From assembly GCF_044704955.1 (NCBI RefSeq), contig NW_027252026.1, positions 496,001 to 560,000 on the forward strand: a DNA stretch of 64,000 bases. The letters are read 5' to 3'. Each line of letters begins with the position of its first letter. Position 1 is the stretch's first letter. The translations under genes were made by a program, and so were the position numbers. This DNA comes from Pristiophorus japonicus. Its lineage: Eukaryota. A model generated the notes under the pieces. It was not told the origin of the DNA. It searched no databases and worked only from the letters and a program-made list of their open reading frames with translations. Shown piece by piece: positions 4,969-20,342 of the stretch.

Positions 4969-5534
4969 TGAACATGGATATTAAATGTATACAGACATTT
5001 AAGTCGAGAAGTTGAGAACGTGGGAATTATATATGGACAGTATAAGCTAACAAAGAATTCATGGAGGAATAGCCATGACATCTCAGACTCGAGACTGCGA
5101 AATGTTACAACACTAACACATATTGAAACAAAACCCACAGCTTGCAGAAAAACCTCAAGGTCTTATTAAATCATGTTATTAACCTGAAACATTTACAGAA
5201 GGCCTTTGTTTAAAATCAGACCATACTTAGGTCGGCTTATGAGTGGACAAAGGGAAAGAGGGATCAAAAGGGATAGGCTGAACTAGGATGTCACTCTAGC
5301 CCTATCTTGTTATCTTTTACCGAAAATGTATAACCGTCGTCCCTTTACAATGTAACGTCACTTTGTCCATAGGAAGTGAGTGCGTTCTATCAGAGTTGCA
5401 TTCCTTCTGTCTGATAAGGTCCCCAATCGGGATTTGCTTTTTAAATAAAAGCTTGCTCTGTTTAAAGCACAATCGGTATTCGACTCAGTGATTTCACTGA
5501 ACCAGATTGAGGGAAAAGAATCCAAAAATCAACA
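4969..5534 (+). repeat. 5' LTR of ERV
   Basis: TG...CA; near-identical to 12971-13533 except the first ~30 nt; AATAAA at 5444-5449. Confidence 0.92.
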
Positions 5535-5536
5535 TT

Positions 5537-5554
5537 TGGTGTCAGAAGTGGGAT
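5537..5554 (+). promoter_or_regulatory. Primer binding site, tRNA-Leu(CAA)
   Basis: TGGTGTCAGAAGTGGGAT lies 2 nt after the LTR and is complementary to the tRNA-Leu(CAA) 3' end ...AUCCCACUUCUGACACCA. Confidence 0.9.
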
Positions 5555-5837
5555 CTCAACGGACGACTGCTGAAAACTTGCGAATTAAGAGCCAGACTAG
5601 CCTTGGACGAGACGAGGGGAAAGTGGCCAGTGGAGTAAGTATACTTTCAATACTGCTCCAGTTTCCCCCGGTTTCAAAAGTCTGAGGAAAGTTTAGCCAC
5701 TCGCTGGTTCTCAGGTAGTGTCTGAACGAGATCCAGGACAATCTGGTGAATACCTTTCAAACTTAGAATAGGGATAGAGATAGGGAAATTGCGCGGTGAC
5801 GCAAACCAAGCGGCGACTCGGAAAGATAGGTTAGAAT

Positions 5838-5845
5838 AGGTAAGT
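5838..5845 (+). promoter_or_regulatory. Major splice donor of ERV
   Basis: AG|GTAAGT perfect consensus in the leader. Confidence 0.6.
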
Positions 5846-6179
5846 CTGCCTGGGTTCGAGGCTCAGAGCCTGCCTGGGTTCGAGGCCCAGTGTCTGTGTG
5901 GGTTCGAGGCCCAAGTAAAACCGCGCGGCAACGCGGAGAGAGAGAGAGAATCGCGCGAACCGCGTAGGGAAACGCGGAGGTTAGGGAATTACGTAAAATT
6001 AAGCCGCGGGACTGCGCGGGACTGTGTAAATTTTAAATTGTACTTACGCCAGGTACGGCGTCAATCTTGTACATCACTTGGTCCACCTAGACTCTGGGTA
6101 AGATAACTGAAACCACCACGGGGCGACGTGGAGACAATCAGGACTAATTAGGACCCTGATCCAACGTGCGGTGACCAGA

Positions 6180-8466
6180 ATGGGTAATTTAGATAAAACT
6201 ACGAATTCCCTGAAAGGTCATGGATCCAAAAATAGAGCCGGCCAAAACAATTAATAGGAAAGAAGAGAGACTCTTGTGAACGTCTGTTTTAAATGAGAAA
6301 TGCTTGTGTGATTTTTACTGTGGAAAAGAAAGCCGGGGAGTTGTGGTTTGTTTTAGCTCCACCCACTTTTTCAAACAGAATGAAAGTTGTTTAACCCTTC
6401 GTAGTGTTGTCCTGTATGTGGGAAGTTTAAGAGTGTGAGCCTTATTGAATTACGTATATTCGGATGATAAGTTACAGAGCCAGGAAATGCACAAAGGATA
6501 GGTTTGTTGAGTAAAAAAAGAAAAAATACATGGTCCCGGTGGTTAAAAAAGGATTTGACATGCTCACTTACTTGTCGAAAGAAAACATGCAATGATTGAT
6601 TACATTACAAATTTTGAATCGGGATTTTGAGATATTCAGAGAAGGCACAGCAAAACAACTGAGATGGATTCAAAAGGATTCAAAAAAAATATATTATATT
6701 AAATCTGCAGTTTAGAAGAAATAGTATAACACGACCTTGAGGCTGGAACAATTGAGATAACGAAAAGCAGTCCACAGCCTACGTGCCAGACTTCCCTCTA
6801 GTTATGGAAAAGACGAAAAAAAAGATGTAACGTACTAAATAGGTGCTGAAAAAAAAAATGTTCTGAGATTTTAAATTATGAGAAAAGTTCCATTGCAGTC
6901 TAAAAAAATATGCATCACTCCTGTCGAGTTGGCAGAAAAACTCCATTAAATTAGGGCTTTCATTGACAGAAGGAGGACATATTAAAAACTGTAGATGTCT
7001 TAAAGATAGAGTGCACGCACGAGAAATGTACTCAGAGTTCCACTGGGACCTCTGAGAAAGGTATCGATAGACTACGTAGTTAAAATGGTTGGCTTTGCAT
7101 TGACTGAGGCTGATGACGAAATTGAATTTCAGTAAACAAATAGCTATTAAAAATGTGTGGTCTCGTTTTAAATCAATTAAAAATATCTTTGGTGAGTACT
7201 TGAATAAGAAGTTAAAAAATATTGGAGTTTAATCAAATGCTGCCTTTCCTGATGAAAAGATTTTTTTTTCAGATGGTTACGCGAAGTCACGTAATGACAT
7301 CGGGTCTTCTTACAAACCTGTAAAGGAGTTAACCCTTTCCATTGACAGCCGTTTCACACTGAACATTATCAATTTGGATTTCTGAATAGAAAAAAGACTC
7401 ACCTAACAGAGGAATGGTGCAATAGTCAGAATAAAAATAAAAACAGAACTAGCTTATGTAATAATACTTGCCTGATACAATAAAGAAATAGATACTCAAA
7501 CAAAACAAATTGAAGAGTTAAAAGGCTAAGATAAATAAGCTGAAAGGGATCCACAAACCCAACTTAACCCTGATCTCCGATTTCACGGAGTGACCTCGAC
7601 ATGCATGGATATAATGCAGAATCAAGGGACCTGTGGGCCCTGGTAAAGCAAACCCTGAGCCCAACTGAGCAAGCCCGATTTCTAACTCACCGAGGACGTG
7701 CTACTCATGATGCATTGTTGGTTGCTCACCCTAACGATGTCCAGGATCGCCTAAACACTAATGCTCTCACCACGACCCTTCAGAAGCCCATCAGTATGGC
7801 CGCAGTATTAGAAACTAAACCCAAACGAGAAGAAACTGCCGATGAATTCATGGAAAGATTTATTGAAATATACGGAAGTCAATCAGGAGATAATGACTTC
7901 AGGGCAGGAGAGGATTCTCCTCAATTCTGCGCTATCCTACTTCAGTGCCTGCCCTATTCGGTTGCTCACGCTCTCCGGACAAATAATATGAATTGGGCAG
8001 ATAACAGTAAAGACCAGATGGAGAGGGCGGTTAAATATTATTGGCAGGAAAAGAAAGGAGAGGGGGGAGGTGCGCCCCCAACCCGGGTCAAGACTGAATA
8101 CGTGACTAGAAAGGAAGAGCCGCCTCGGGTGGAAGGACCAAAACCCGACCCAAGGGGATACCAGATGGAACCGCAGTGTTGTGTGCAGGGTTGGTGGATA
8201 AACAGGGATACGGTTATATCAAACACCCAAATGGCCCGAGCCCTGCTAATTACGGACTGCCCTACGGGGCCTGGTATGGAAAGAGGTTGGGGCTGGGAGA
8301 TGGATGCTTTATTTGTGGGCAAGAAGGACATTGGAATAGAAATTGTCCCTCCCGTCAGCACGAAAAAGGAAGAGGAGTGGGGCAAGGGGGGAGAGGACGG
8401 GGATCTTGCACTAACTTCTCCCAGAACAACCCCTTTGGCCAACCATCCCCCGATTATTCGTATTGA
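6180..8466 (+). pseudogene. gag: ERV gag (decayed N-terminal half; capsid and nucleocapsid readable)
   Basis: Candidate start MGNLDKT at 6180. Capsid-like ORF from 7601 (ETADEFMERF, MHR-like). After a frameshift, zinc knuckle CFICGQEGHWNRNC and stop TGA at 8464-8466. Confidence 0.85.
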
Positions 8467-11266
8467 CTACGTAGCTTGGTTGTGCAGGGACCCTCCCCGG
8501 ATGATGAACCGATGATATTGTTAAAAATTCGGAATGAGTGGCAACCCTTCTTGATAGATACGGGAGCCTTCATTTCTTCTGTACAATCAAAGCTGAAACT
8601 CCCCGCCTTCACTGAAACACAGGGACTGTCAGGATTCCTGGGACAAGTCTCTCCATTCCCGATGTCAGAACCGGTTAAAATGGGTTACCAGGAAGAATCG
8701 GTGGAACATCGATTTGTTATCACAACCAATCTGGACTGTAACTTGATGGCTCGAGACCTCCTCTGCAAATTCCAGTTGCATTTGGAGTGTGGAGATGATG
8801 GGATTATTGTAAAACAAGGAACCCTTAAGCGGCAGTATTATACCACTAGAGCCCCTCAGTGGTGGTCTCTGGACCTGCCGCAGGCACCCTATCACGTGAC
8901 CCTAGCATACGATCCCAGTGGAAAGAATCAGGACCTGCAGAACTTTTATCAGGATCACGAAGGGGAAGTGAAGGAAATTCTATTAAGGGCTAGAGTGACT
9001 GGACCGGAAGGGAAGGCAGATTTTGTGGAAATGGACAGCCCCCAACGGTGGCACCACATATTACTCGTGAAGTATTACCTCCCCACCACGCGAAAGATTT
9101 GGGAGTTATGGTGCGCCAGGCTATAGACGAGGCTGACCCTACCAGCCGGGATGTGCAAACTGTAAAACATGGCCAAACAGTCCAATTCCACGGGGACCCC
9201 GAGAAGGTCTTAACGTCTCTGCAGCATCATACTGGCTCTGACATACCTGACTATGTGGATCCTCATGTGTGGGCAGAGGACCCCTCCCAAGTGGGTTATA
9301 CTCCCATTGATCCGATTGAGATCCCAGTGCAGGGCAATGTGGACTGGCCCTCTATCCGACAGTACCCACTGAAATCACAGGCAATACCGAGTATCCACCG
9401 AGCTCTGGAGGCTAGCCGAGTCGAACCAATTTGCCAGTTTCCAGTCCCTAGCACGGCTAAACAAATGCGCCAGTGGTTGGGGATGATCAATTACTGCAGA
9501 TCCTGGATCCCTAATGTTGCCCTGATGACTAAGCACCTCATCCCGTATACAAATAAGGAAGGCAGCTTTGAAATAGAAACCGCAGACGTCCAAGCCTTTA
9601 AGGAACTAAAGACAGCCCTGCTGCAAGCTCCGGCTTTGGTCTGGCCCCTCTATGACCTTTCAACTGTATTGTACAATCCTGAAAGACTGTGCTACCGTTG
9701 TCTTAACACCTCTCACTCCGTAGCTGCCCTCCTGGGCCAGCTGCAGACTCAACACCTTAACATGGCCAGGCAAAGCAGATATGAGATCTACCTACTAAAC
9801 AACCCAAGCTGACCTTTCGGCACTGTACTGCAATTAATCCGGCCTGTTTTCTTACTGAGCCGCCCCAAGATGAGGAAGAACCCAGTCATGATTGTTTATC
9901 TTTAATTCAAGAGGCCACATCAGTCAGGGGAGATTTAGTTGATGTACCAATGGAAGATCCAGACTGTATTATGTATGTTGACGGAAGTTCTTCTATTAAT
10001 CCAGAAGGTACACGAATCTCAGGATACGCCATAGTAAACCAGGAGAATCAGGTCTTGGAATCTGCCGCCTTTGAAACCGCCTATTCTGCCCAACAAGCTG
10101 AACTATTCACCCTCACCCGAGCCTGTATCTTGGCCAAAGACCTCAAAGTCAATATCTATACCGACTCTAGGTATGCCTTTGGGGTGGCCCATGATTTCGG
10201 ACAATTATGGAAAAATAGGGGATTCCTAACCTCACAGGGGAATGAGATATTCCATAAGCAACTAGTATCTGATTTGTTGCAAGCCCTCATGCTCACCAAG
10301 CACATTGCCGTTGTTAAATGTACCGCCCACACCACCGGAAAATCCCCGGTTGATATCGGGAACCACTGTGCTGACAAAGAAGCTAAACAGGCCTCTAGTG
10401 TCCAAAATGATGAGTCAGACTAAAAAATCCTGCGAAGGATAAGTTAGCCTCGGAAAAACCAATGCCAACCATCCAAGATGTTATTAAAGCACAGGAGGAC
10501 GCTCCTGAAAAAGAAAAACTGTTGTGGAAAAATTATGGATGTACTTATGACAATGTTTCTAAACTCTGGACCACTCCCGCGGAACAGACTTGCATGTCTG
10601 ATGAGTTGGCTCTATGGGTTATTGAATGTATGCATTTTTGCTACTCATTGTGGAGCAAGGACCACGAGTGACACACTTTTGGCTACTTGGTGGCATCCTA
10701 GACTCCAGGCGCTCGCCCAGAACATCAGTAGTCGTTGCCTGGTTTGCCAGCAACATAATCCAGGGAAGGGAGTCCCCTGTGATTGGGGTAAAATGCCCCT
10801 ACCCGAAGGTCCCTTTGAGACATTTCAGTTGGACTACATTGAGTTGCAAAAAGTTCAGTGTTACAAATATGTGTTAGTAATAGTAGATGTGTTTAGCAGG
10901 TGGATTGAAGCCTACCCTACCCTGGACAATAAGGCTCAAACTGTTGTTAAGGTGTTAATGAGGGAAATTGTTCCTAGATATGGTATCTCAGCTCGACTGA
11001 TGACCACCTATGTTCTTTCTCTGACTCAGGCTCTGCGACTAGCTCACAACCAGGTTCGAGAGGCTCACCTCGATCTCCCAGTTTTACCCAAATCGTCCCT
11101 CATGGTACCTGGGAAGTATGTCCTGATTAAGAGGTGGATTCGGAAGGGATTGGAGCCACAATGGGAGGGGCCTTTTCAGGTGTTATTCACTACCCCCACT
11201 GCAGCCAAGGTTGAGGGGAGAAGTGCCTGGGTTTACCTGCACCACTGCAAGCTCACCACCCCCTAA
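8467..11266 (+). pseudogene. pol: ERV pro-pol: protease, 2H-like insert, RT with core deleted, RNase H, integrase with partial deletion
   Basis: FLIDTGA and NLMARDLL (protease); IRQYPL jumps directly to thumb WLGMINYCRSWIP with no YxDD; YVDGSS/SAQQAEL/YTDSRY (RNase H); H...CLVC, LDY, GPF (integrase) with the D-35-E segment missing; several frameshifts. Confidence 0.92.
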
Positions 11267-11287
11267 CGAACCTATTTTACTGGTTAT

Positions 11288-11310
11288 TCTAACTCCTGTT
11301 TCTGTTCCAG
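11288..11310 (+). promoter_or_regulatory. env splice acceptor
   Basis: ctaac branch point, pyrimidine tract and CAG just after the integrase stop. Confidence 0.6.
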
Positions 11311-11497
11311 ACTTCCTCTTCTCCATAGCTGAACAAGGCCGTTGACATCCTAATTGTAACGTGGACCAGTTTGAACTTTTACCCGTAGTGATAGACAGCC
11401 AGCTACACCGACGGTGACCTAAGAAGAGAGACGGGAGAACCGAACTCTTTTAATCAGCAAAATAATTGGACTATTTATCTGAATCCTGAGCCATAAG

Positions 11498-12934
11498 ATG
11501 AAACTGTGTCTGTATGCCACAGTCTGTATAATATGACAGTTTCGGCGCATGGGAGGGGAGACAGAGAAGAGAGCTCCATGTAAACACCTTTTTGTACATG
11601 TTTTATGTTTATGCGCAAAATGGGAACTTTTCTTGATGCTGGGTGTGCTCACATATCCCTATACATTCCAAAGGGGGTATTACTTTACGCCCCGTTCCAC
11701 TGACCCTAACTGAGACTGTCAAGTGGCTTCTGAGCCAGACTAGCATGAGCGGAGGGGGGCCATGCAAATACGAGAGAGGAAAGGCGGGTCAAAAGAGGGA
11801 TCACAGAGATCAGGAGGCGTATTATACCGTTACCACATGAACGACCACGGGGAGGTCACCAAGTGGGAGAGTGCTGGAGACCCCATTAGTCAGATGTCCC
11901 AGGGATGGTACCAACCAATCTACGACTGTGGAAAGGAACCCCCATTCTTAGCTCTGACCAATACCTCGGGGATTGGGAGGCCAACCGGAGACATATGTCG
12001 AACCCGAAATGACACCAGTAACAAGGGACATATCATAGGGTACAGCAAATGCCCACACAATCTCAACATCACCACAGGTGCACGAGTCACCATCCTCTCT
12101 CACCTTCCGAGTAAAACAGGTGGAGGTTTGTGGGCCCAGTCCTGGGACCCGGAAGCAATATATCAGAAAGCAGCTTTTAACGGCACGTATTTCGTGTGCG
12201 GTCATAAGGCATATCCTTGGTTGCCCAGGCGATGGACAGGGTCCTGTTATCTGGGATATGTGGTGCCATTTGTGCGGCAAGTACGTACCCTGGTGGAAGC
12301 ACATGCCTCCAGCCGATACAAGCGAGCCATCACCCCCGTCGACAAGTTCTTTGGGGTCATGATGTTCCCAATCAGGATAGGACGTCTCACGGATGAAGTA
12401 CAGAACCTAGAGACGATATTGGAACGGATAGCTAACAATACTGCTGAAGCTCTGGAGGGCATCATAGCTGAAATGGTAGCAATAAGGACCGTAGCATTAC
12501 AAAACCGAATGGCCCTCGATTACCTGTTAGCTGAGAAAGGGGGAACGTGTGCCCTGATAGGATCTGAATGTTGCACTTACATTCCCGATAGTTCAGAAAA
12601 CATAACCAATCTCGCTGATCACATAAGAAGGGAGGTGAAGAAGTTATCCACACCAGCAGAAGGATCTAACTGGTTTGATGGGCTATCAGATGGATCTTGG
12701 AGATCCTATCTAATGCATGGGGCAATTATTCTCATCGTAGTAATAATTACCTGTTGTTTGATTGTTGGTTGCCTTAACCTTTGTTGTAAAGTAATGATGG
12801 CAAGGTTAGTAAACCCTCTTGTGGTCAAGGGCTCCCGAGTTATGATCCAACGAACTAAAGAACTAATCGACACTAACAACAATATGATTCAGGAAATAGA
12901 GTGTGAACGGATGAATGCAATACTCCTAGAATGA
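11498..12934 (+). pseudogene. env: Gamma-type envelope; N-terminus disrupted, 390-aa C-terminal ORF open
   Basis: Signal MKLCLYATVCII; CWVC motif near 11637; furin site RYKR; ISD LQNRMALDYLLAEKGGTC; CX6CC (CALIGSECC); TM AIILIVVIITCCLIVGC. Confidence 0.93.
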
Positions 12935-12958
12935 TCCTAAGTGTTAGCATGGAATGAT

Positions 12959-12970
12959 AAAAGGGGGAAA
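12959..12970 (+). promoter_or_regulatory. Polypurine tract
   Basis: AAAAGGGGGAAA immediately before the TG of the 3' LTR. Confidence 0.85.
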
Positions 12971-13533
12971 TGTGAATGTTTAAAAATGTATAAAGTCGAG
13001 AAGTTGATAACGTGGGAATTATATATGGACAGTATAAGCTAACAAAGAATTCATGGAGGAATAGCCATGACATCTCAGACTCGAGACTGCGAAATGTTAC
13101 AACACTAACACATATTGAAACAAAACCCACAGCTTGCAGAAAAACCTCAAGGTCTTATTAAATCATGTTATTAACCTGAAACCTGAAACATTAACAGAAG
13201 GTCTTTGTTTAAAATCAGACCATACTTAGGTCGGCTTATGAGTGGACAAAGGGAAAGAGGGATCAAAAGGGATAGGCTGAACTAGGATGTCACTCTAGCC
13301 CTATCTTGTTATCTTTTGCCGAAAATGTATAACCGTCGTCCCTTTACAATGTAACGTCACTTTGTCCGTAGGAAGTGAGTGCGTTCTATCAGAGTTGCAT
13401 TCCTTCTGTCTGATAAGGTCCCCGATCGGGATTTGCTTTTTAAATAAAAGCTTGCTCTGTTTAAAGCACAATCGGTATTTGACTCAGTGATTTCACTGAA
13501 CCAGATTGAGGGAAAAGAATCCAGAAATCAACA
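12971..13533 (+). repeat. 3' LTR of ERV
   Basis: TG...CA; about 8 substitutions (counted by eye) and a 7-bp duplication relative to the 5' LTR. Confidence 0.93.
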
Positions 13534-15365
13534 CACGTATCATACTCGAGGGCACACAGGTGGACAGGCTGTGCCTGTCCTAGTCAGGGTTTTGGTTGGG
13601 AGGGGGCAGATGGGATTTCGGTACCAATGGCGGTGGCTCCTTTCCAGGGCCATCTAACATGGCTCGGAGCGCAGTTAAAAAGGTCTCAAACGAGTGGGGA
13701 GGGACTGGCTTATCTGTCCCGGTCTTTTGGGCAGGGGCTGGAGAATTCTTTCCTGCGCTATTCTGCCAAGGATTTCTTCAATCCTTTCTCCAGTGCCCAC
13801 TCTTTCCACACCCAAAGCAGGTACGTTTTGTATCGGAGGGGTTGCCCCCTTGTGGTGCCATTCCCTCTTGTCTTGGTCAGGTCAGATTTCGTGAACCTTT
13901 CCCTTTTGTGGGGGCTCTTCTGTCCCTCTGCCGTTTCTGTAAGCTAGGGTCAGCTGCCTAAGCACTCTCTATTCTGTGGCTTGGGGGTCTCTGGGGTTGA
14001 ACCAGGCCTCAGCCTTGGTTCTTATTCTGGGTAAACTGTTAGATACTAGGCTTCGGAGCCAGTGGGCTAACTTGTCCGGGTTGAGGTCCCCTCCACAGGC
14101 CACAGTCGGTCTGCGAAAGCCTGTGGGGTTTCCCCTGTGAGCTGCACCGTTTACTCTGGAGAAGGGACTCACTTCATGCAGCCCAGAGCTTCTAAAATGT
14201 CTTTCTGGATGGCAGCAAGTGTTTTCTGTCCTCTTTTGCTCTCAGTAGAGAGGGACTGGTACAGTTTGCTGTCGAGAGATAGGAGAAGCATCTTTGCCAT
14301 CTCGGCCTCATCGCACCCATTAATATCCCCTGCCTGTTCCACCTCCACAAAGTGAACTGAGGGGTCTCCCTTTGGAGTGAGCTTTCCCAGGTGGCTTATC
14401 ATAGTCCTAAGCTGGTGGGGAGTGTGGGGGACCACAAACTGACTTTCCAGGGGCCCTGGACCCCCGGCAAGGGTGGGCGGGCCAAACCTCTGTTGCCGGA
14501 CCAGGCACATTGGCCCTGGTTCTGGCTCTCCCTGTTCTGGCTCGCCTCCCTCTCCTCCCTGCTGCCAGACCGAGCTGAAACTCGGTGCCACAGGTGCTGG
14601 TGGTTCACTATCCCTGTTCACCCTGCAACTCGTTCGCCCCTCCTGCTGCTTCACCGGTGTAGTCACCGGTGCTACAGGTAGTGGCCAGGTCGTTTCTTCC
14701 TTCTCTTCCAGGTTTACCTGGGGCGTACCCGGGCTTATTAAACATACCGTGCCTTTTGCTTTGGACAGAGCAAGGGTTAAACTCTTGATTTGCTGCTGGC
14801 AGGGACGGTGGTCTCCCGATTCAAACCCATTAGTGCTAGCTACTTTATACGCTGCTTGCACATCTTTTAAATTTTCCTGGAGCTCTTTTACTTGTAGGGT
14901 GAGGCGAGTGCTTTCCTCCCTCAGTGACTTTTCATTACTTTTGGCCTCGGTAACCTGAAATTGAAAATAGTCCTGACTGTTCTTAAACCTTTCCATTAGC
15001 TGGGTCTTTTCCTGTTTTAGCTTACGGAGTTCTTCTGCAATAGCCCTTTCCTGATAGTTCTCTGCACATTCCCATAACTCTGCCTGTAGTGTCTCATTGG
15101 TTTTATCCAGGAGTTGGACCTGTCGCTGCAGACAGACGAATCAGATTGCCTTCTCTACTGATTCTTTGTGATCCTTGCTTGCTGTCCACTGGGCTGCAGC
15201 GTCGGCTGGACGCTCAGCGCACAACAGACCAAGCACCCATTCCTTAGTGACATTCACCTTCTTGTACACATAGGAGGAAATCCTCTCTTCCATCTTGGTT
15301 CTTTCCCCCAAACCAGCACTCTCCGCATCACAGCCCTTGTACCAGAGTCCTGCCGCGGTCGCCAT
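13534..15365 (-). pseudogene. gag: gag of a second LTR element (lokiretrovirus-like), coiled-coil N-terminus, truncated at the start of protease
   Basis: MATAAGLWYKG..., a long E/K/Q-rich heptad region, capsid-like MLLLSLDSKLY, zinc knuckle CFGCGKSGHWRKD*, then TGACTAG and LCALEYDT at the ERV junction. Confidence 0.8.
15345..15364 (-). promoter_or_regulatory. Primer binding site, tRNA-Arg(TCG)
   Basis: Plus strand GAGTCCTGCCGCGGTCGCCA equals the 3' end of vertebrate tRNA-Arg(TCG) plus CCA; 3 nt from the LTR end. Confidence 0.88.
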
Positions 15366-15367
15366 TT

Positions 15368-18300
15368 TGTAAGGGGTGGTCCCGGGCTTCAGGTTCACCT
15401 CTGATCGACTTGAGTGGTTCGAATGGCTCCCACTCCCTTGGGTTCTACACTCTGGGTTTATTTGGGGAATGTGACAAAATGCAAAGTACAACTGGTTTGG
15501 TGCAAAGAACTTTGACTTTATTACAGACAAGAAAGTATAAGGTCAGCCTTATAATCACTGTAATAAAGAACAATATATTACACATTCAGAAACATAGAAA
15601 CATAGAAAATAGGTGCAGGAGCAGGCCATTCAGCCCTTCTAGCCTGCACCGCCATTCAATGAGTTCATGGCTGAACATGAAACTTCAGTACCCCCTTCCT
15701 GCTTTCTCGCCATACCCCTTGATCCCCCAAGTAGTAAGGACTTCATCTAACTCCCTTTTGAATATATTTAGTGAATTGGCCTCAACTACTTTCTGTGGTC
15801 GAGAATTCCACAGGTTCACCACTCTCTGGGTGAAGAAGTTTCTCCTCATCTCGGTCCTAAATGGCTTACCCCTTATCCTCAGACTGTGACCCCTGGTTCT
15901 GGACTTCCCCAACATTGGGAACATTCTTCCTGCATCTAACCTGTCTAAACCCGTCAGAATTTTAAACGTTTCTATGAGGTCCCCTCTCATTCTTCTGAAC
16001 TCCAGTGAATACAAGCCCAGTTGATCCAGTCTTTCTTGATAGGTCAGTCCCACCATCCCGGGAATCAGTCTGGTGAATCTTCGCTGCACTCCCTCAATAG
16101 CAAGAATGTCCTTCCTCAAGTTAGGAGACCAAAACTGTACACAATACTCCAGGTGTGGCCTCACCAAGGCCCTGTACAACTGTAGCAACACCTCCCTGCC
16201 CCTGTACTCAAATCCCCTCGCTATGAAGGCCAACATGCCATTTGCTTTCTTAACCGCCTGCTGTACCTGCATGCTAACCTTCAATGACTGATGTACCATG
16301 ACACCCAGGTCTCGTTGCACCTTCCCTTTTCCTAATCTGTCACCATTCAGATAATAGTCTGTCTCTCTGTTTTTACCACCAAAGTGGATAACCTCACATT
16401 TATCCACATTATACTTCATCTGCCATGCATTTGCCCACTCACCTAACCTATCCAAGTCACTCTGCAGCCTCATAGCATCCTCCTCGCAGCTCACACTGCC
16501 ACCCAACTTAGTGTCATCCGCAAATTTGGAGATACTACATTTAATCCCCTCGTCTAAATCATTAATGTACAATGTAAACAGCTGGGGCCCCAGCACAGAA
16601 TCTTGCGGTACCCCACTAGTCACTGCCTGCCATTCTGAAAAATACCCATTTACTCCGACTCTTTGCTTCCTGTCTGACAACCAGTTCTCAATCCATGTCA
16701 GCACACTACCCCCAATCCCATGTGCTTTAACTTTGCACATTAATCTCTTGTGTGGGACCTTGTCGAAAGCCTTCTGAAAATCCAAATATACCACATCAAC
16801 TGGTTCTCCTTTGTCCACTTTACTGGAAACATCCTCAAAAAATTCCAGAAGATTTGTCAAGCATGATTTCCCTTTCACAAATCCATGCTGACTTGGACCT
16901 ATCATGTCACCATTTTCCAAATGCGCTGCTATGACATCCTTAATAATTGATTCCATCATCTTACCCACTACTGAGGTCAGGCTGACCGGTCTATAATTCC
17001 GTTTTCTCTCTCCCTCCTTTTTTAAAAGGTGGGGTTACATTGGCTACCCTCCACTCGATAGGAACTGATCCAGAGTCAATGGAATGTTGGAAAATGACTG
17101 TCAATGCATCCGTTATTTCCAAGGCCACCTCCTTAAGTACTCTGGGATGCAGTCCATCAGGCCCTGGGGATTTATCGGCCTTCAATCCCATCAATTTCCC
17201 CAACACAATTTCCCGACTAATAAAGATTTCCCTCAGGTCCTCCTCCTTACTAGACCCTCTGATCCCTTTTATATCCGGAAGGTTGTTTGTGTCCTCCTTA
17301 GTGAATACCGAACCAAAGTACTTGTTCAATTGGTCTGCCATTTCTTTGTTCCCCGTTCCGACTTCCCCTGATTCTGACTGCAGGGGACCTACGTTTGTCT
17401 TTACTAACCTTTTCTCTTTACATACCGATAGAAACTTTTGCAATCCGCCTTAATGTTCCCTGCAAGTTTCTTCTCGTACTCAATTTTCCCTGCCCTAATC
17501 AAACCCTTTGTCCTCCTCTGCTGAGTTCTAAATTTCTCCCAGTCCCCGGGTTCACTGCTATTTCTGGCCAATTTGTATGCCACTTCCTTGGCTTTAATAC
17601 TATCCCTGATTTCCCTAGATAGCCACGGTTGAGCCACCTTCCCTTTTTTATTTTTACGCCAGACAGGAATGTACAATTGTTGTAGTTCATCCATGCGGTC
17701 TCTAAATGTCTGCCATTGCCCATCCACAGTCAACCCCTTAAGTATCATTCGCCAATCTATCCTAGCCAATTCACGCCTCATACCTTCAAAGTTACCCTTC
17801 TTTAAGTTCTGGACCATGGTCTCTGAATTAACTGTTTCATTCTCCATCCTAATGCAGAATTCCACCATATTATGGTCACTCTTCCCCAAGGGGCCTCGCA
17901 CAATGAGATTGCTAATTAATCCTCTCTCATTACACAACACCCAGTCTAAGATGGCCTCTCCCCTAGTTGGTTCCTCGACATATTGGTCTAGAAAACCATC
18001 CCTTATGCACTCCAGGAAATCCTCCTCCACCGTATTGCTTCCAGTTTGGCTCGCCCAATCTATGTGCATATTAAAGTCAACTATTATAACTGCTACACCT
18101 TTATTGCACGCACCCCTAATTTCCTGTTTGATGCCCTCCCCAACATCACTACTACTGTTTGGAGGTCTGTACACAGCTCCCACTAACGTTTTTTGCCCTT
18201 TGGTGTTCTGCAGCTCTACCCATATAGATTCCACATCATCCAAGCTAATGTCTTTCCTAACTATTGCATTAATCTCCTCTTTAACCAGCAATGCTACCCC

Positions 18301-20342
18301 ACCTCCTTTTCCTTTTATTCTATCCTTCCTGAATGTTGAATACCCCTGGATGTTGAGTTCCCAGCCCTGATCATCCTGGAGCCACGTCTCCGTAATCCCA
18401 ATCACATCATATTTGTGAACGTCTATTTGCACAGTTAATTCATCCAACTTATTGCGGATACTCCTTGCATTAAGACACAAAGCCTTCAGGCTTGTTTTTT
18501 TAACACCCTTTGTCCTTTTAGAATTTTGCTGTACAGTGGCCCTTTTTGTTCTTTGCCTTGGGTTTCTCTGCCCTCCACTTTTCCTCATCTCCTTTCTGTC
18601 TTTTGCTTTTGCCTCCTTTTTGTCTCCCTCTGTCTCCCTGCATTGGTTCCCATCCCCCTGCCATATTAGTTTAACTCCTCTCCAACAGCACTAGCAAACA
18701 CTCCCCCTAGGACATTGGTTCCGGTCCTGCCCAGGTGCAGACCATCCGGTTTGTACTGGTCCCACCTCCCCCAGAACCGGTTCTAATGCCCCAGGAATTT
18801 GAATCCCTCCCTGCTGCACCACTGCTCAAGCCACGTATTCATCGGCGCTATCCTGCGATTCCTACTCTGACTAGCACGTGGCACTGGTAGCAATCCCGAG
18901 ATTACTACTTTTGAGGTCCTACTTTTTAATTTAGCTCCTAGCTCCTTAAATTCGTTTCGTAGGACCTCATCCCTTTTTTTACCTATGTCGTTGGTACCAA
19001 TGTGCACCACGACAACTGGCTGTTCTCCCTCCCATTTCAGAATGTCCATTCAAAGATGGTTACAGTAAAAATTACACCTCCCACCTCCTAGTACCTAAGC
19101 CTAGCTAGGTTAGACTCCAGGGCAGGCAGGGACTATGCTTACCAATCCTTTCTGGTCAGTTAGCGGTAGTTCACGATTTTGGTGTTCGTTGAGTTCTGTA
19201 GGTTCTGCTTGTCATACCCCGAACATCGGAGAGGACTTCTTACTGCACAATCTTCAGTTGGGCTGAGTCCGCTGATGTGGAAAGGCACGTTTTGGATTTG
19301 TGGGGTAAGTACCCATTTTCTATCATTAGAAGTAGGTTTTTACAGTACTTTAGGTAATGTTTTATCCATTGGTAGCTCAGGAACAGCTTGTAGAGTGGAA
19401 ACTTTCGATTCTTCGGTTTCTTTCCGTTGGAGTTTTGTTTCGAGTTTGGTCGATCTCGGTGGCTTTTATTGGTACCACGTTGGCTGTGGTCAGTTGCTGC
19501 CACGATGGTGATCTTCTTCCTTCCCTTTTGGACTTCAGGACTTCGAGGCTGGAGAAGTTAGTTTTCAACTGTTGCGTTGCTCTCTCTCCCTTCTTGATGG
19601 CACAGTCGTAGTATGGTATACACGCATAGCATACTCAGTGTCTCCTGAGGTAGTAGCAACCTAGCCTCTGTTAAAACAGGGGCCAGTTATATGGTTTGAG
19701 CTGTCCTAATCTTCATGCCAAATAAGTTCAGATTTCTTTGTTTGAATTTGGCAGGCTTGACATTACTTTGTAATATTTTGGCGGGCTCGTTAAAAGTTTG
19801 CATGTCTTGGGTGGGTTGCTGTTCGAAATCTGTTTCCTGATGGAAAATATTGGCTTGGTAATCGAAATGTCCTTTTGTGCTTGGTTTTTGCATACAGGCT
19901 GTAGTGGGCCCTTTTGTTTTTATGCGTGCCGAAGATGGCTTTTCTCAATTCGGTTGGATTGCTGGCCATCTCTGAGTTAGTGTTGTAATATTAATCTCTC
20001 TTCTGGAGAAGGGTTTTCGAATATCTATTTCTCCAGACACTTTACGTTAGCCCCAACACCCAGACAGTTCCAATAATCAAGTTGGTTCCTTCAGTTCTTT
20101 GAGGCCTGCCCACAGACTTGAATTTGTCTTGTAAAAGTCCAAAATTCGATTAAAGTTCGTGGTTTCTTCCATAAGCACTTTAGGATTTCAACTTTCCGGT
20201 AGATAGTCCCAAATTAAATTTCCTTTCCAATGAGCCCAAACACTGGCCGGTGGGGGGGAAGGGGGGGGGAGTTGGGGGGAGGGGGGGTCGGGGGAGGGGG
20301 GGTGGTGGGGCGGGGCGGTTTCCAGTGAATTTTGACCTTTCA
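15368..20342 (-). repeat. Long 5' LTR (~1.5 kb) of the second element, split by a LINE
   Basis: Termini TGAAAGG (20342) and CCTTACA (15368); AATAAA near 15517-15522; pieces 15368-15588 and 19047-20342 flank the LINE. Confidence 0.7.
15589..19046 (-). mobile_element. CR1/HER1-type LINE, near full length (ORF1 3' end and ORF2 EN-RT, frameshifted)
   Basis: SGNH-like ORF1 VVVHIGTND; endonuclease CLNARS/ITETW/SDH; 427-aa RT fragment; (catagaaa)n tail; candidate TSD CATTCA at 15583-15588 and 19047-19052. Confidence 0.96.

What the first reader, a model, noticed from the sequence alone, without database searches (positions are those of the whole stretch)
8850..9230. 2H-phosphoesterase-like domain inserted between protease and RT
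Seen: about 120 extra codons after protease contain two HxT motifs, PYHVTLAY (His at 8893) and APHITREV (His at 9057), separated by a frameshift. Known: paired Hx[T/S] motifs define the 2H phosphoesterase fold. Such domains have been noted in some fish retroviral polyproteins, and coronavirus ns2 and rotavirus VP3 2H domains cleave 2'-5' oligoadenylates to block OAS-RNase L. Inference: this ERV lineage carried a nucleotide-processing enzyme, possibly an innate-immune antagonist or a tRNA/RNA end-processing activity.
Basis: partly seen in the sequence, partly recalled or inferred. Interest (0 to 1): 0.72.

Follow-up and report, generated by a model that had tools for sequence, protein, structure and literature searches.

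The report
CNPase-like domain in fish retrovirus relic
A dead retrovirus copy, likely in a shark or ray genome, carries between its protease and reverse transcriptase a broken domain that in unbroken sister copies is predicted to fold like the host enzyme CNPase and likely opens 2',3'-cyclic phosphates; such domains were already noted in fish retroviruses.

Summary
Both His motifs sit at 8893 and 9057, in different frames. The break is inherited: 257 copies in the genome share it, and this copy also lacks its RT core. Other natural copies carry protease and both motifs in one frame, 60 residues apart (13 of 18). Both His are invariant in shark, skate, ray and teleost relatives. dN/dS is about 0.08-0.11, like the protease. 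An AlphaFold model of an unbroken copy (pLDDT 94.5) matches CNPase (Z 14.6) and fungal Trl1 (11.8) far better than rotavirus VP3 (7.0), ns2 (5.6) or AKAP18 (5.0). Its best viral matches include walleye retrovirus polyproteins. So the 2H reading holds, but the likely chemistry is 2',3'-cyclic-phosphate opening, not 2-5A cleavage. One young lineage, including copies with full open pol frames, reads HxA at motif 2. That change inactivates mouse CNPase, so the activity is likely accessory. The kind is known (Mazumder 2002, Basta 2009, seen only as cited), and this scan noted it on other DNA (5 notes). I found no functional test in print.

The parts
4983..5534 (+). 5' LTR (start approximate)
   Evidence: Matches the 3' LTR at 97.2% over 541 nt, 8 mismatches and 1 gap; ends in CA
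5537..5554 (+). Primer binding site; tRNA-Leu type (label recalled, not tested)
   Evidence: TGG-starting 18-mer two bases after the LTR end
7574..8466 (+). gag remnant: capsid-like frame and CCHC nucleocapsid; ends in TAG in frame with pro (read-through inferred)
   Evidence: ORFs; zf-CCHC E 2.8e-6
8503..8784 (+). Retroviral aspartic protease (DTG)
   Evidence: Pfam RVP E 3.2e-6
8842..9039 (+). 2H domain, first half, in frame with the protease; His1 codon 8893-8895 (HVT)
   Evidence: model of an unbroken copy
9033..9045 (+). Frame break between the two motifs (short out-of-frame deletion), inherited by a large subfamily
9042..9245 (+). 2H domain, second half; His2 codon 9057-9059 (HIT), then the alpha7-like helix start AKDLG
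9250..9812 (+). RT remnant: N-terminus, then thumb/connection; polymerase core (LPQG, YxDD) absent at about 9400
9962..10396 (+). RNase H
   Evidence: Pfam E 1.6e-23
10448..11266 (+). Integrase, core partly deleted near 11000
   Evidence: Pfam rve, H2C2, MLVIN_C; gap against sister copies
11744..12934 (+). env remnant, gamma-type (CX6CC)
   Evidence: Pfam TLV_coat E 7e-14
12959..13533 (+). Polypurine tract (12959-12970) and 3' LTR (TG...CA, 12971-13533)

Best explanation
This is a broken, inherited copy of a compact two-histidine domain that this fish-type retrovirus family encodes in Pol between protease and RT; it is predicted to fold like CNPase and likely opens 2',3'-cyclic phosphates on nucleotides or RNA ends. 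Shown: position, open frame in sister copies, invariant His pair, purifying selection. Predicted: the fold. Inferred chemistry, by analogy with CNPase: His2 activates a water, His1 protonates the leaving 3'-O, and a 2'-phosphate with a free 3'-OH results. Inferred delivery: as part of Gag-Pol read-through it would be packed into virions and arrive with RT. Inferred role: an accessory enzyme that removes cyclic-phosphate ends left by host RNases on viral RNA, primer tRNA or signalling fragments. It would help infection but is not needed for copying in the germ line. The window copy is a non-autonomous passenger that lost the domain's frame and its RT core.
For: AF2 with 26-row alignment: pLDDT 94.5, pTM 0.87. 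Foldseek PDB: all listed top hits are CNPase (best E 1.5e-6), then RICH and fungal Trl1. VIA over 48,161 chains: CNPase Z 13.9, rmsd 2.9, 137 aligned; next Z 7.5. Second look: CNPase 14.6, RICH 11.8, Trl1 11.8, VP3 7.0. BFVD: WEHV-1 polyprotein E 2.2e-7, WDSV E 3.6e-6. CNPase ligand positions map in register: aromatic at His1+5 (F235; Tyr in 23 of 23), Gly at His2+15 (G324; 24 of 24), helix from His2+11 (CNPase numbering from PDB titles and PMC4643303). dN/dS of the domain between deep subfamilies 0.08, 0.09, 0.11, against protease 0.08, 0.07, 0.10. Accessory role: an HxA clade (support 96/89) has RT dN/dS 0.20 and IN 0.12. All 3 of 20 fetched stretches with every Pol motif in one frame read HxA. 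T311A leaves mouse CNPase with no measurable activity (PMC4643303 Table 1).
Against: No activity was measured; a shared fold shows no substrate. Sequence-level support is weak: no Pfam hit for the query, best member E 0.006 and below cut-off, hhalign to the host's CNP last exon probability 0.9%. The single-sequence fold failed (pLDDT 39.6). Identity to CNPase is about 15%, and the R307 position is not Arg (0 of 24). The alpha7 match rests on register and DSSP; I could not inspect coordinates. In the HxA clade the domain is still constrained (dN/dS 0.32, interval 0.18-0.57), which a purely catalytic role does not fully explain. Nothing here identifies the physiological substrate.
Confidence: 0.6

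Rival explanations
1. It is a 2-5A phosphodiesterase that blocks OAS-RNase L, like coronavirus ns2 and rotavirus VP3.
For: Same superfamily; VP3 Z 6.4-7.0, ns2 Z 5.6. The host genome has an OAS cluster: 16 exon matches, 15 on one contig.
Against: Those enzymes are the eukaryotic-viral LigT group (PMC8406329, passages) and score half the CNPase Z. The alpha7-like helix is predicted to block that side (PMC5283653, passages). The Ribonuc_2-5A search found 3 matches at two loci, whose best exons both match IRE1; this exon-wise search cannot prove RNase L absent. Teleost retroviruses keep the domain although teleosts are recalled to lack OAS-RNase L (not confirmed).
Confidence: 0.1
2. It degrades cGAMP or another cyclic oligonucleotide, to mute cGAS-STING sensing of reverse-transcribed DNA.
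For: Retroviral cDNA is a cGAS ligand (established knowledge). 2H enzymes of phages and avian poxviruses do this (bioRxiv 2024.01.22.576744, passages). The only PDB sequence hit of profile A2 was Acb1, E 1.3.
Against: Acb1 Z 6.1 and penguinpox PDE Z 5.2 against CNPase 13.9; the Acb1 sequence hit is not significant.
Confidence: 0.12
3. Catalysis is secondary: the domain serves mainly as an RNA- or tRNA-binding module, or as a folded spacer needed for Pol processing.
For: The HxA clade replicated with RT and IN under selection, and its 2H domain stayed below dN/dS 1.
Against: Both His, the first Thr and the base-stacking aromatic are kept from sharks to teleosts. MLV and foamy Pol run without such an insert (one search shows no match there; architecture recalled).
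Confidence: 0.13
4. The motifs are chance matches in junk spacer DNA.
For: No Pfam family above cut-off; two word-indexed protein searches found nothing.
Against: 27 hits in the HMMER search, 26 of them plausible relatives; confident fold; purifying selection.
Confidence: 0.01

Closest known systems
2H domains of fish retroviruses: WDSV and WEHV (Mazumder et al. 2002, as cited in PMC9503650 section 3.4.5); CNPase-encoding epsilon-like ERVs of ray-finned fish (Basta et al. 2009, as cited in PMC4977317)
   Same: 2H domain in a fish retroviral polyprotein; best viral fold matches are WEHV-1 (Q9WHI8, TMq 0.78) and WDSV (A4GTG3); teleost ERV Pol proteins carry it at the same place.
   Different: Host is likely a cartilaginous fish (top named homologs: Scyliorhinus, Leucoraja, Amblyraja, Mobula). 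His spacing is 60-61 against 63-64 in teleost-type rows, and the N-terminal part is shorter. Neither primary paper was held, so the overlap with their alignments is unchecked.
Vertebrate CNPase / fish RICH catalytic domain (PDB 2xmi, 1woj, 2i3e; Pfam PF05881)
   Same: Best structural match (Z 13.9-14.6, 137 of 140 residues aligned); HxT pair, aromatic at +5, Gly at +15, helix after motif 2.
   Different: About 135 against 210-216 residues; His spacing 60 against 79; about 15% identity; no R307; PF05881 finds only the host gene in this genome, not the ERVs.
Fungal tRNA ligase Trl1 cyclic phosphodiesterase domain (PDB 6u05; PF08302)
   Same: Z 11.8, rmsd 3.3, 130 aligned; weak Atlas lead 0.81; same 2',3'>p to 2'-phosphate chemistry (established knowledge).
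   Different: No kinase or ligase partner domain here; fused to protease and RT.
Viral 2',5'-phosphodiesterases (MHV ns2 4z5v, rotavirus VP3 4ye2/5af2) and AKAP7/AKAP18 (2vfk)
   Same: 2H superfamily; captured by an RNA virus.
   Different: Z only 5.0-7.0; a different 2H subgroup; they lack the CNPase-type helix (PMC5283653).

Membership tests
2H phosphoesterase superfamily | Two conserved Hx[T/S] motifs | tested here: met
   His 23/23 and 24/24; Thr/Ser 22/23 and 22/24. One lineage in this genome reads HxA.
2H phosphoesterase superfamily | Two-lobed 2H fold with motifs at strand starts | tested here: met
   Model of an unbroken copy, pLDDT 94.5; strands begin at His18 and His78; top 14 VIA rows are all 2H proteins by title or recall
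2H phosphoesterase superfamily | Metal-independent phosphoesterase activity | not testable with these tools
   Needs an assay
CNPase/RICH/Trl1-CPD subgroup | Closest fold is CNPase, well above other 2H groups | tested here: met
   Z 13.9 against next 7.5; 14.6, 11.8, 11.8 against 7.5
CNPase/RICH/Trl1-CPD subgroup | Helix alpha7 after motif 2 | tested here: inconclusive
   Helix 89-102 starts at His2+11 and aligns without gaps to the host CNP exon, but hhalign probability is 0.9% and coordinates were not inspected
Vertebrate CNPase family proper (PF05881) | Match to the family profile | tested here: not met
   No PF05881 hit for any of 26 rows; genome search finds only the host gene
Viral 2',5'-PDEs (eukaryotic-viral LigT group) | Closest fold among ns2, VP3, AKAP7 | tested here: not met
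   All three are listed, at Z 5.0-7.0, against 13.9-14.6 for CNPase
Viral 2',5'-PDEs (eukaryotic-viral LigT group) | Cleaves 2-5A | not testable with these tools
   Needs an assay
Fish retroviral Pol-embedded 2H domain | In frame in Pol between protease and RT | tested here: met
   13 of 18 natural copies; skate and cichlid Pol proteins
Fish retroviral Pol-embedded 2H domain | Similarity to walleye retrovirus polyproteins | tested here: met
   BFVD ranks 1 and 3; the matched range in those proteins is not printed
Epsilon-like (class I) retrovirus | RT phylogeny with WDSV/WEHV | not tested
   No named epsilon RT was at hand; the label rests on in-frame gag TAG, gamma-type env and MLVIN_C

The most novel reading that the evidence does not exclude
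Fish retroviruses pack a minimal CNPase into the virion to erase 2',3'-cyclic-phosphate ends, either as immune-stimulating RNase products or on the primer tRNA. This would be a retroviral counter-defence aimed at RNase products rather than at 2-5A or cGAMP. The natural HxT and HxA lineages in this one genome record its loss as the virus settled into the germ line.
Probability: 0.22. Interest if true: 0.72.

Novelty: new member of a known kind. Interest (0 to 1): 0.33.

Why it matters
The domain has been known by name in fish retroviruses since 2002, but my 10 literature searches found no test of its function. It has stayed under purifying selection from sharks to teleosts, so it does something. 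The fold narrows the likely substrate to 2',3'-cyclic phosphates and argues against the popular 2-5A reading. At about 135 residues it is a compact enzyme, easy to assay. The natural HxT and HxA variants give a built-in comparison of whether catalysis matters. The window copy itself is dead and ordinary.

Tried and rejected
Word-indexed protein searches found nothing for the window half or the unbroken domain. The third, with alignment A1, was swamped by RT columns and gave 3 cichlid-type Pol proteins; the A1 PDB search likewise hit only RTs. The single-sequence AF2 fold failed. Pfam gave no hit for the unbroken domain in 4 copies. The phmmer PDB search gave one chance hit. P0013, an RTX-repeat protein among the 27 HMMER hits, was dropped as chance. 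P0019 (motif 1 missing) and near-duplicate rows were left out of A2. The viral-contig search could not run on A1. I first read the 298 HxA matches as autonomous spread. That was wrong: 17 of 20 sampled lack the RT core (hand-picked from the first 100 listed), so only the RT-bearing members bear on the argument. The idea that HxA goes with env loss was not supported: one sampled RT-bearing HxA copy keeps both env parts. RNase L was not found in the host, which is inconclusive. Mazumder 2002, Basta 2009 and a Cell 2024 paper on viral 2H enzymes were not held. No supplements were read; those of the bioRxiv preprint could list retroviral 2H domains.

Full report
1. Observation. They lie in a provirus that runs from about 4983 to 13533. 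Its LTRs are 97.2% identical. It has a primer site, a gag remnant ending in an in-frame TAG, protease, RT remnant, RNase H, integrase and a gamma-type env. The genome is 5.9 Gb. The closest named proteins come from a catshark, skates and a devil ray, so the host is likely a cartilaginous fish (inference).

2. The break is inherited. All 30 closest copies have the two motifs in different frames, and none shows an LPQG or YxDD motif within 1.5 kb. An exact two-anchor pattern finds 257 copies with the window's short spacing and 18 with longer spacing. Of those 18, 13 hold both motifs in one open frame, His 60 residues apart. Against such copies the window has a short out-of-frame deletion near 9033-9045 and lacks the RT core near 9400. 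Of 18 sampled broken-type copies, 16 lack the RT core. The window copy therefore belongs to a non-autonomous subfamily, copied in trans (inference). A protein search with the unbroken domain scored the best 150 of 2783 candidates; 138 have no stop inside (counted by eye).

3. Relatives. HMMER over 1.84 billion representatives gave 27 hits, best E 3e-29. One, an RTX-repeat protein, was dropped as chance. The long hits are retroviral Pol proteins with the domain between RVP and RVT_1. In the domain-only alignment A2 (26 rows, 6 from this genome) both His are invariant, as are Tyr at His1+5 and Gly at His2+15. His spacing is 60-61 in elasmobranch-type rows and 63-64 in teleost-type rows. Pairwise Nei-Gojobori dN/dS between deep subfamilies is 0.08-0.11 for the domain, equal to the protease. 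The copies were chosen by similarity and open frame, which biases within-group values downward.

4. Fold. All folds used one natural unbroken copy. Alone it folded poorly (pLDDT 39.6); with A2 it reached 94.5. Foldseek ranks CNPase first (E 1.5e-6). VIA-align over 48,161 chains gives CNPase Z 13.9 (rmsd 2.9, 137 aligned). Next come a Deinococcus-type CPDase at 7.5, VP3 6.7, Acb1 6.1, Usb1 6.1, ns2 5.6, penguinpox cGAMP PDE 5.2 and AKAP18 5.0. The second look adds RICH and fungal Trl1 at 11.8. Among viral models, ranks 1 and 3 are WEHV-1 and WDSV polyproteins; rank 2 is unnamed. Sequence methods barely see this: the best Pfam E among 26 rows is 0.006, and the four best families are all 2H types. 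hhalign to the host's CNP last exon puts motif 2 and the following helix in gap-free register, at probability 0.9%.

5. Mechanism. In mouse CNPase, His309 activates water, His230 protonates the leaving group, F235 stacks the base, and helix alpha7 lines the site (PMC4643303, passages and Table 1). PMC5283653 (passages) says alpha7 is unique to CNPases and blocks the side that 2-5A enzymes use. The model has a helix from His2+11 and keeps the aromatic and Gly positions. The likely reaction is therefore 2',3'-cyclic phosphate to 2'-phosphate (inferred). As part of Gag-Pol it would be packaged (established retroviral biology). Cyclic-phosphate RNAs made by RNase L or RNase T2 stimulate RIG-I, NLRP3 and TLR8 (PMC8406329, passages), which gives a motive without 2-5A cleavage. 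Healing of a primer tRNA end is an equal-standing variant that I cannot separate from it.

6. A natural loss of function. 298 copies read HxA at motif 2. The sampled HxA copies form a derived clade nested in HxT copies (support 96/89; one unrelated copy also reads HVA). Of 20 sampled, 17 are RT-less passengers and say nothing. But of 20 stretches picked for long frames, the 3 with protease, both His, RT, RNase H and integrase motifs in one frame all read HxA. Within the clade RT and IN are under selection (0.20, 0.12). T311A abolishes measurable CNPase activity. If that carries over, the enzyme was dispensable for recent replication in this host, as accessory genes are. Against this reading, the domain in that clade is still constrained (0.32, 0.18-0.57), and env is not uniformly lost.

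7. Rivals. 2-5A antagonism: the host has OAS genes, but the fold group is wrong, and the RNase-domain search found only IRE1-like loci (inconclusive). cGAMP degradation: a good motive but a weak fold match. A non-catalytic module: favoured only by the HxA clade.

8. Known or new. PMC9503650 (passages) lists 2H domains in fish retroviruses and WDSV, citing Mazumder 2002. PMC4977317 (passages) reports CNPase-encoding epsilon-like ERVs in ray-finned fish, citing Basta 2009. Neither primary paper was held. PMC4422223 on shark ERVs has no 'phospho' word. PMC10835031, PMC8406329 and bioRxiv 2024.01.22.576744 have no 'retrovir' word. PMC3185748, PMC6307210 and PMC7471995 were seen as passages only and added little. 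Ten searches showed no functional test and no report for cartilaginous fish; most subscription papers are outside the library. This scan noted the same domain on other DNA five times (AI notes, seen after my own fold result). Verdict: a real domain, a new member of a known kind, dead in this copy. The subgroup assignment and the HxA lineage are the useful additions. Interest 0.33.

Noticed in passing
G000, loci L031-L099: The protease-2H block and RT have different histories: between two subfamilies dS is 0.78 (PR) and 1.23 (2H) but 0.12-0.27 in RT, RNase H and IN, which suggests recombination swapped the block.
   Followed up: partly
G000, 298 pattern matches: A derived clade reads HxA at motif 2; most sampled copies are RT-less passengers, and LTR pairs are closer (median mismatch 0.005, 8 of 20 measurable) than in HxT (0.016, 11 of 13) or broken-type copies (0.015, 10 of 18).
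   Followed up: yes
L049, L096, L097: A second ERV family in this genome carries the same domain at about 47% identity, with HxT at both motifs.
   Followed up: partly
G000:C8:218.42-218.60 Mb: Cluster of about five OAS-like genes; no RNase L found by profile.
   Followed up: partly
window 5826-5898: ARAGORN calls a tRNA-Ser(CGA) inside the ERV leader, over three short repeats holding GGTTCGAG; probably a false call.
   Followed up: no
G000:C19:5.12-5.88 Mb: At least ten HxA-score copies, several spaced about 39 kb apart, which points to segmental duplication rather than insertion.
   Followed up: no
window 14169-15542 (-) and 15685-18690 (-): A coiled-coil, gag-like ORF without a Pfam name, and a LINE with endonuclease- and RT-like frames, lie just downstream of the provirus (labels from motif reading).
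   Followed up: no
window from 23656: Long tandem array with a 10-nt period.
   Followed up: no
P0010, P0021: Two teleost Pol homologs carry misleading database names (neuronal calcium sensor 1; RAD9B). No Pfam model covers this retroviral domain.
   Followed up: no
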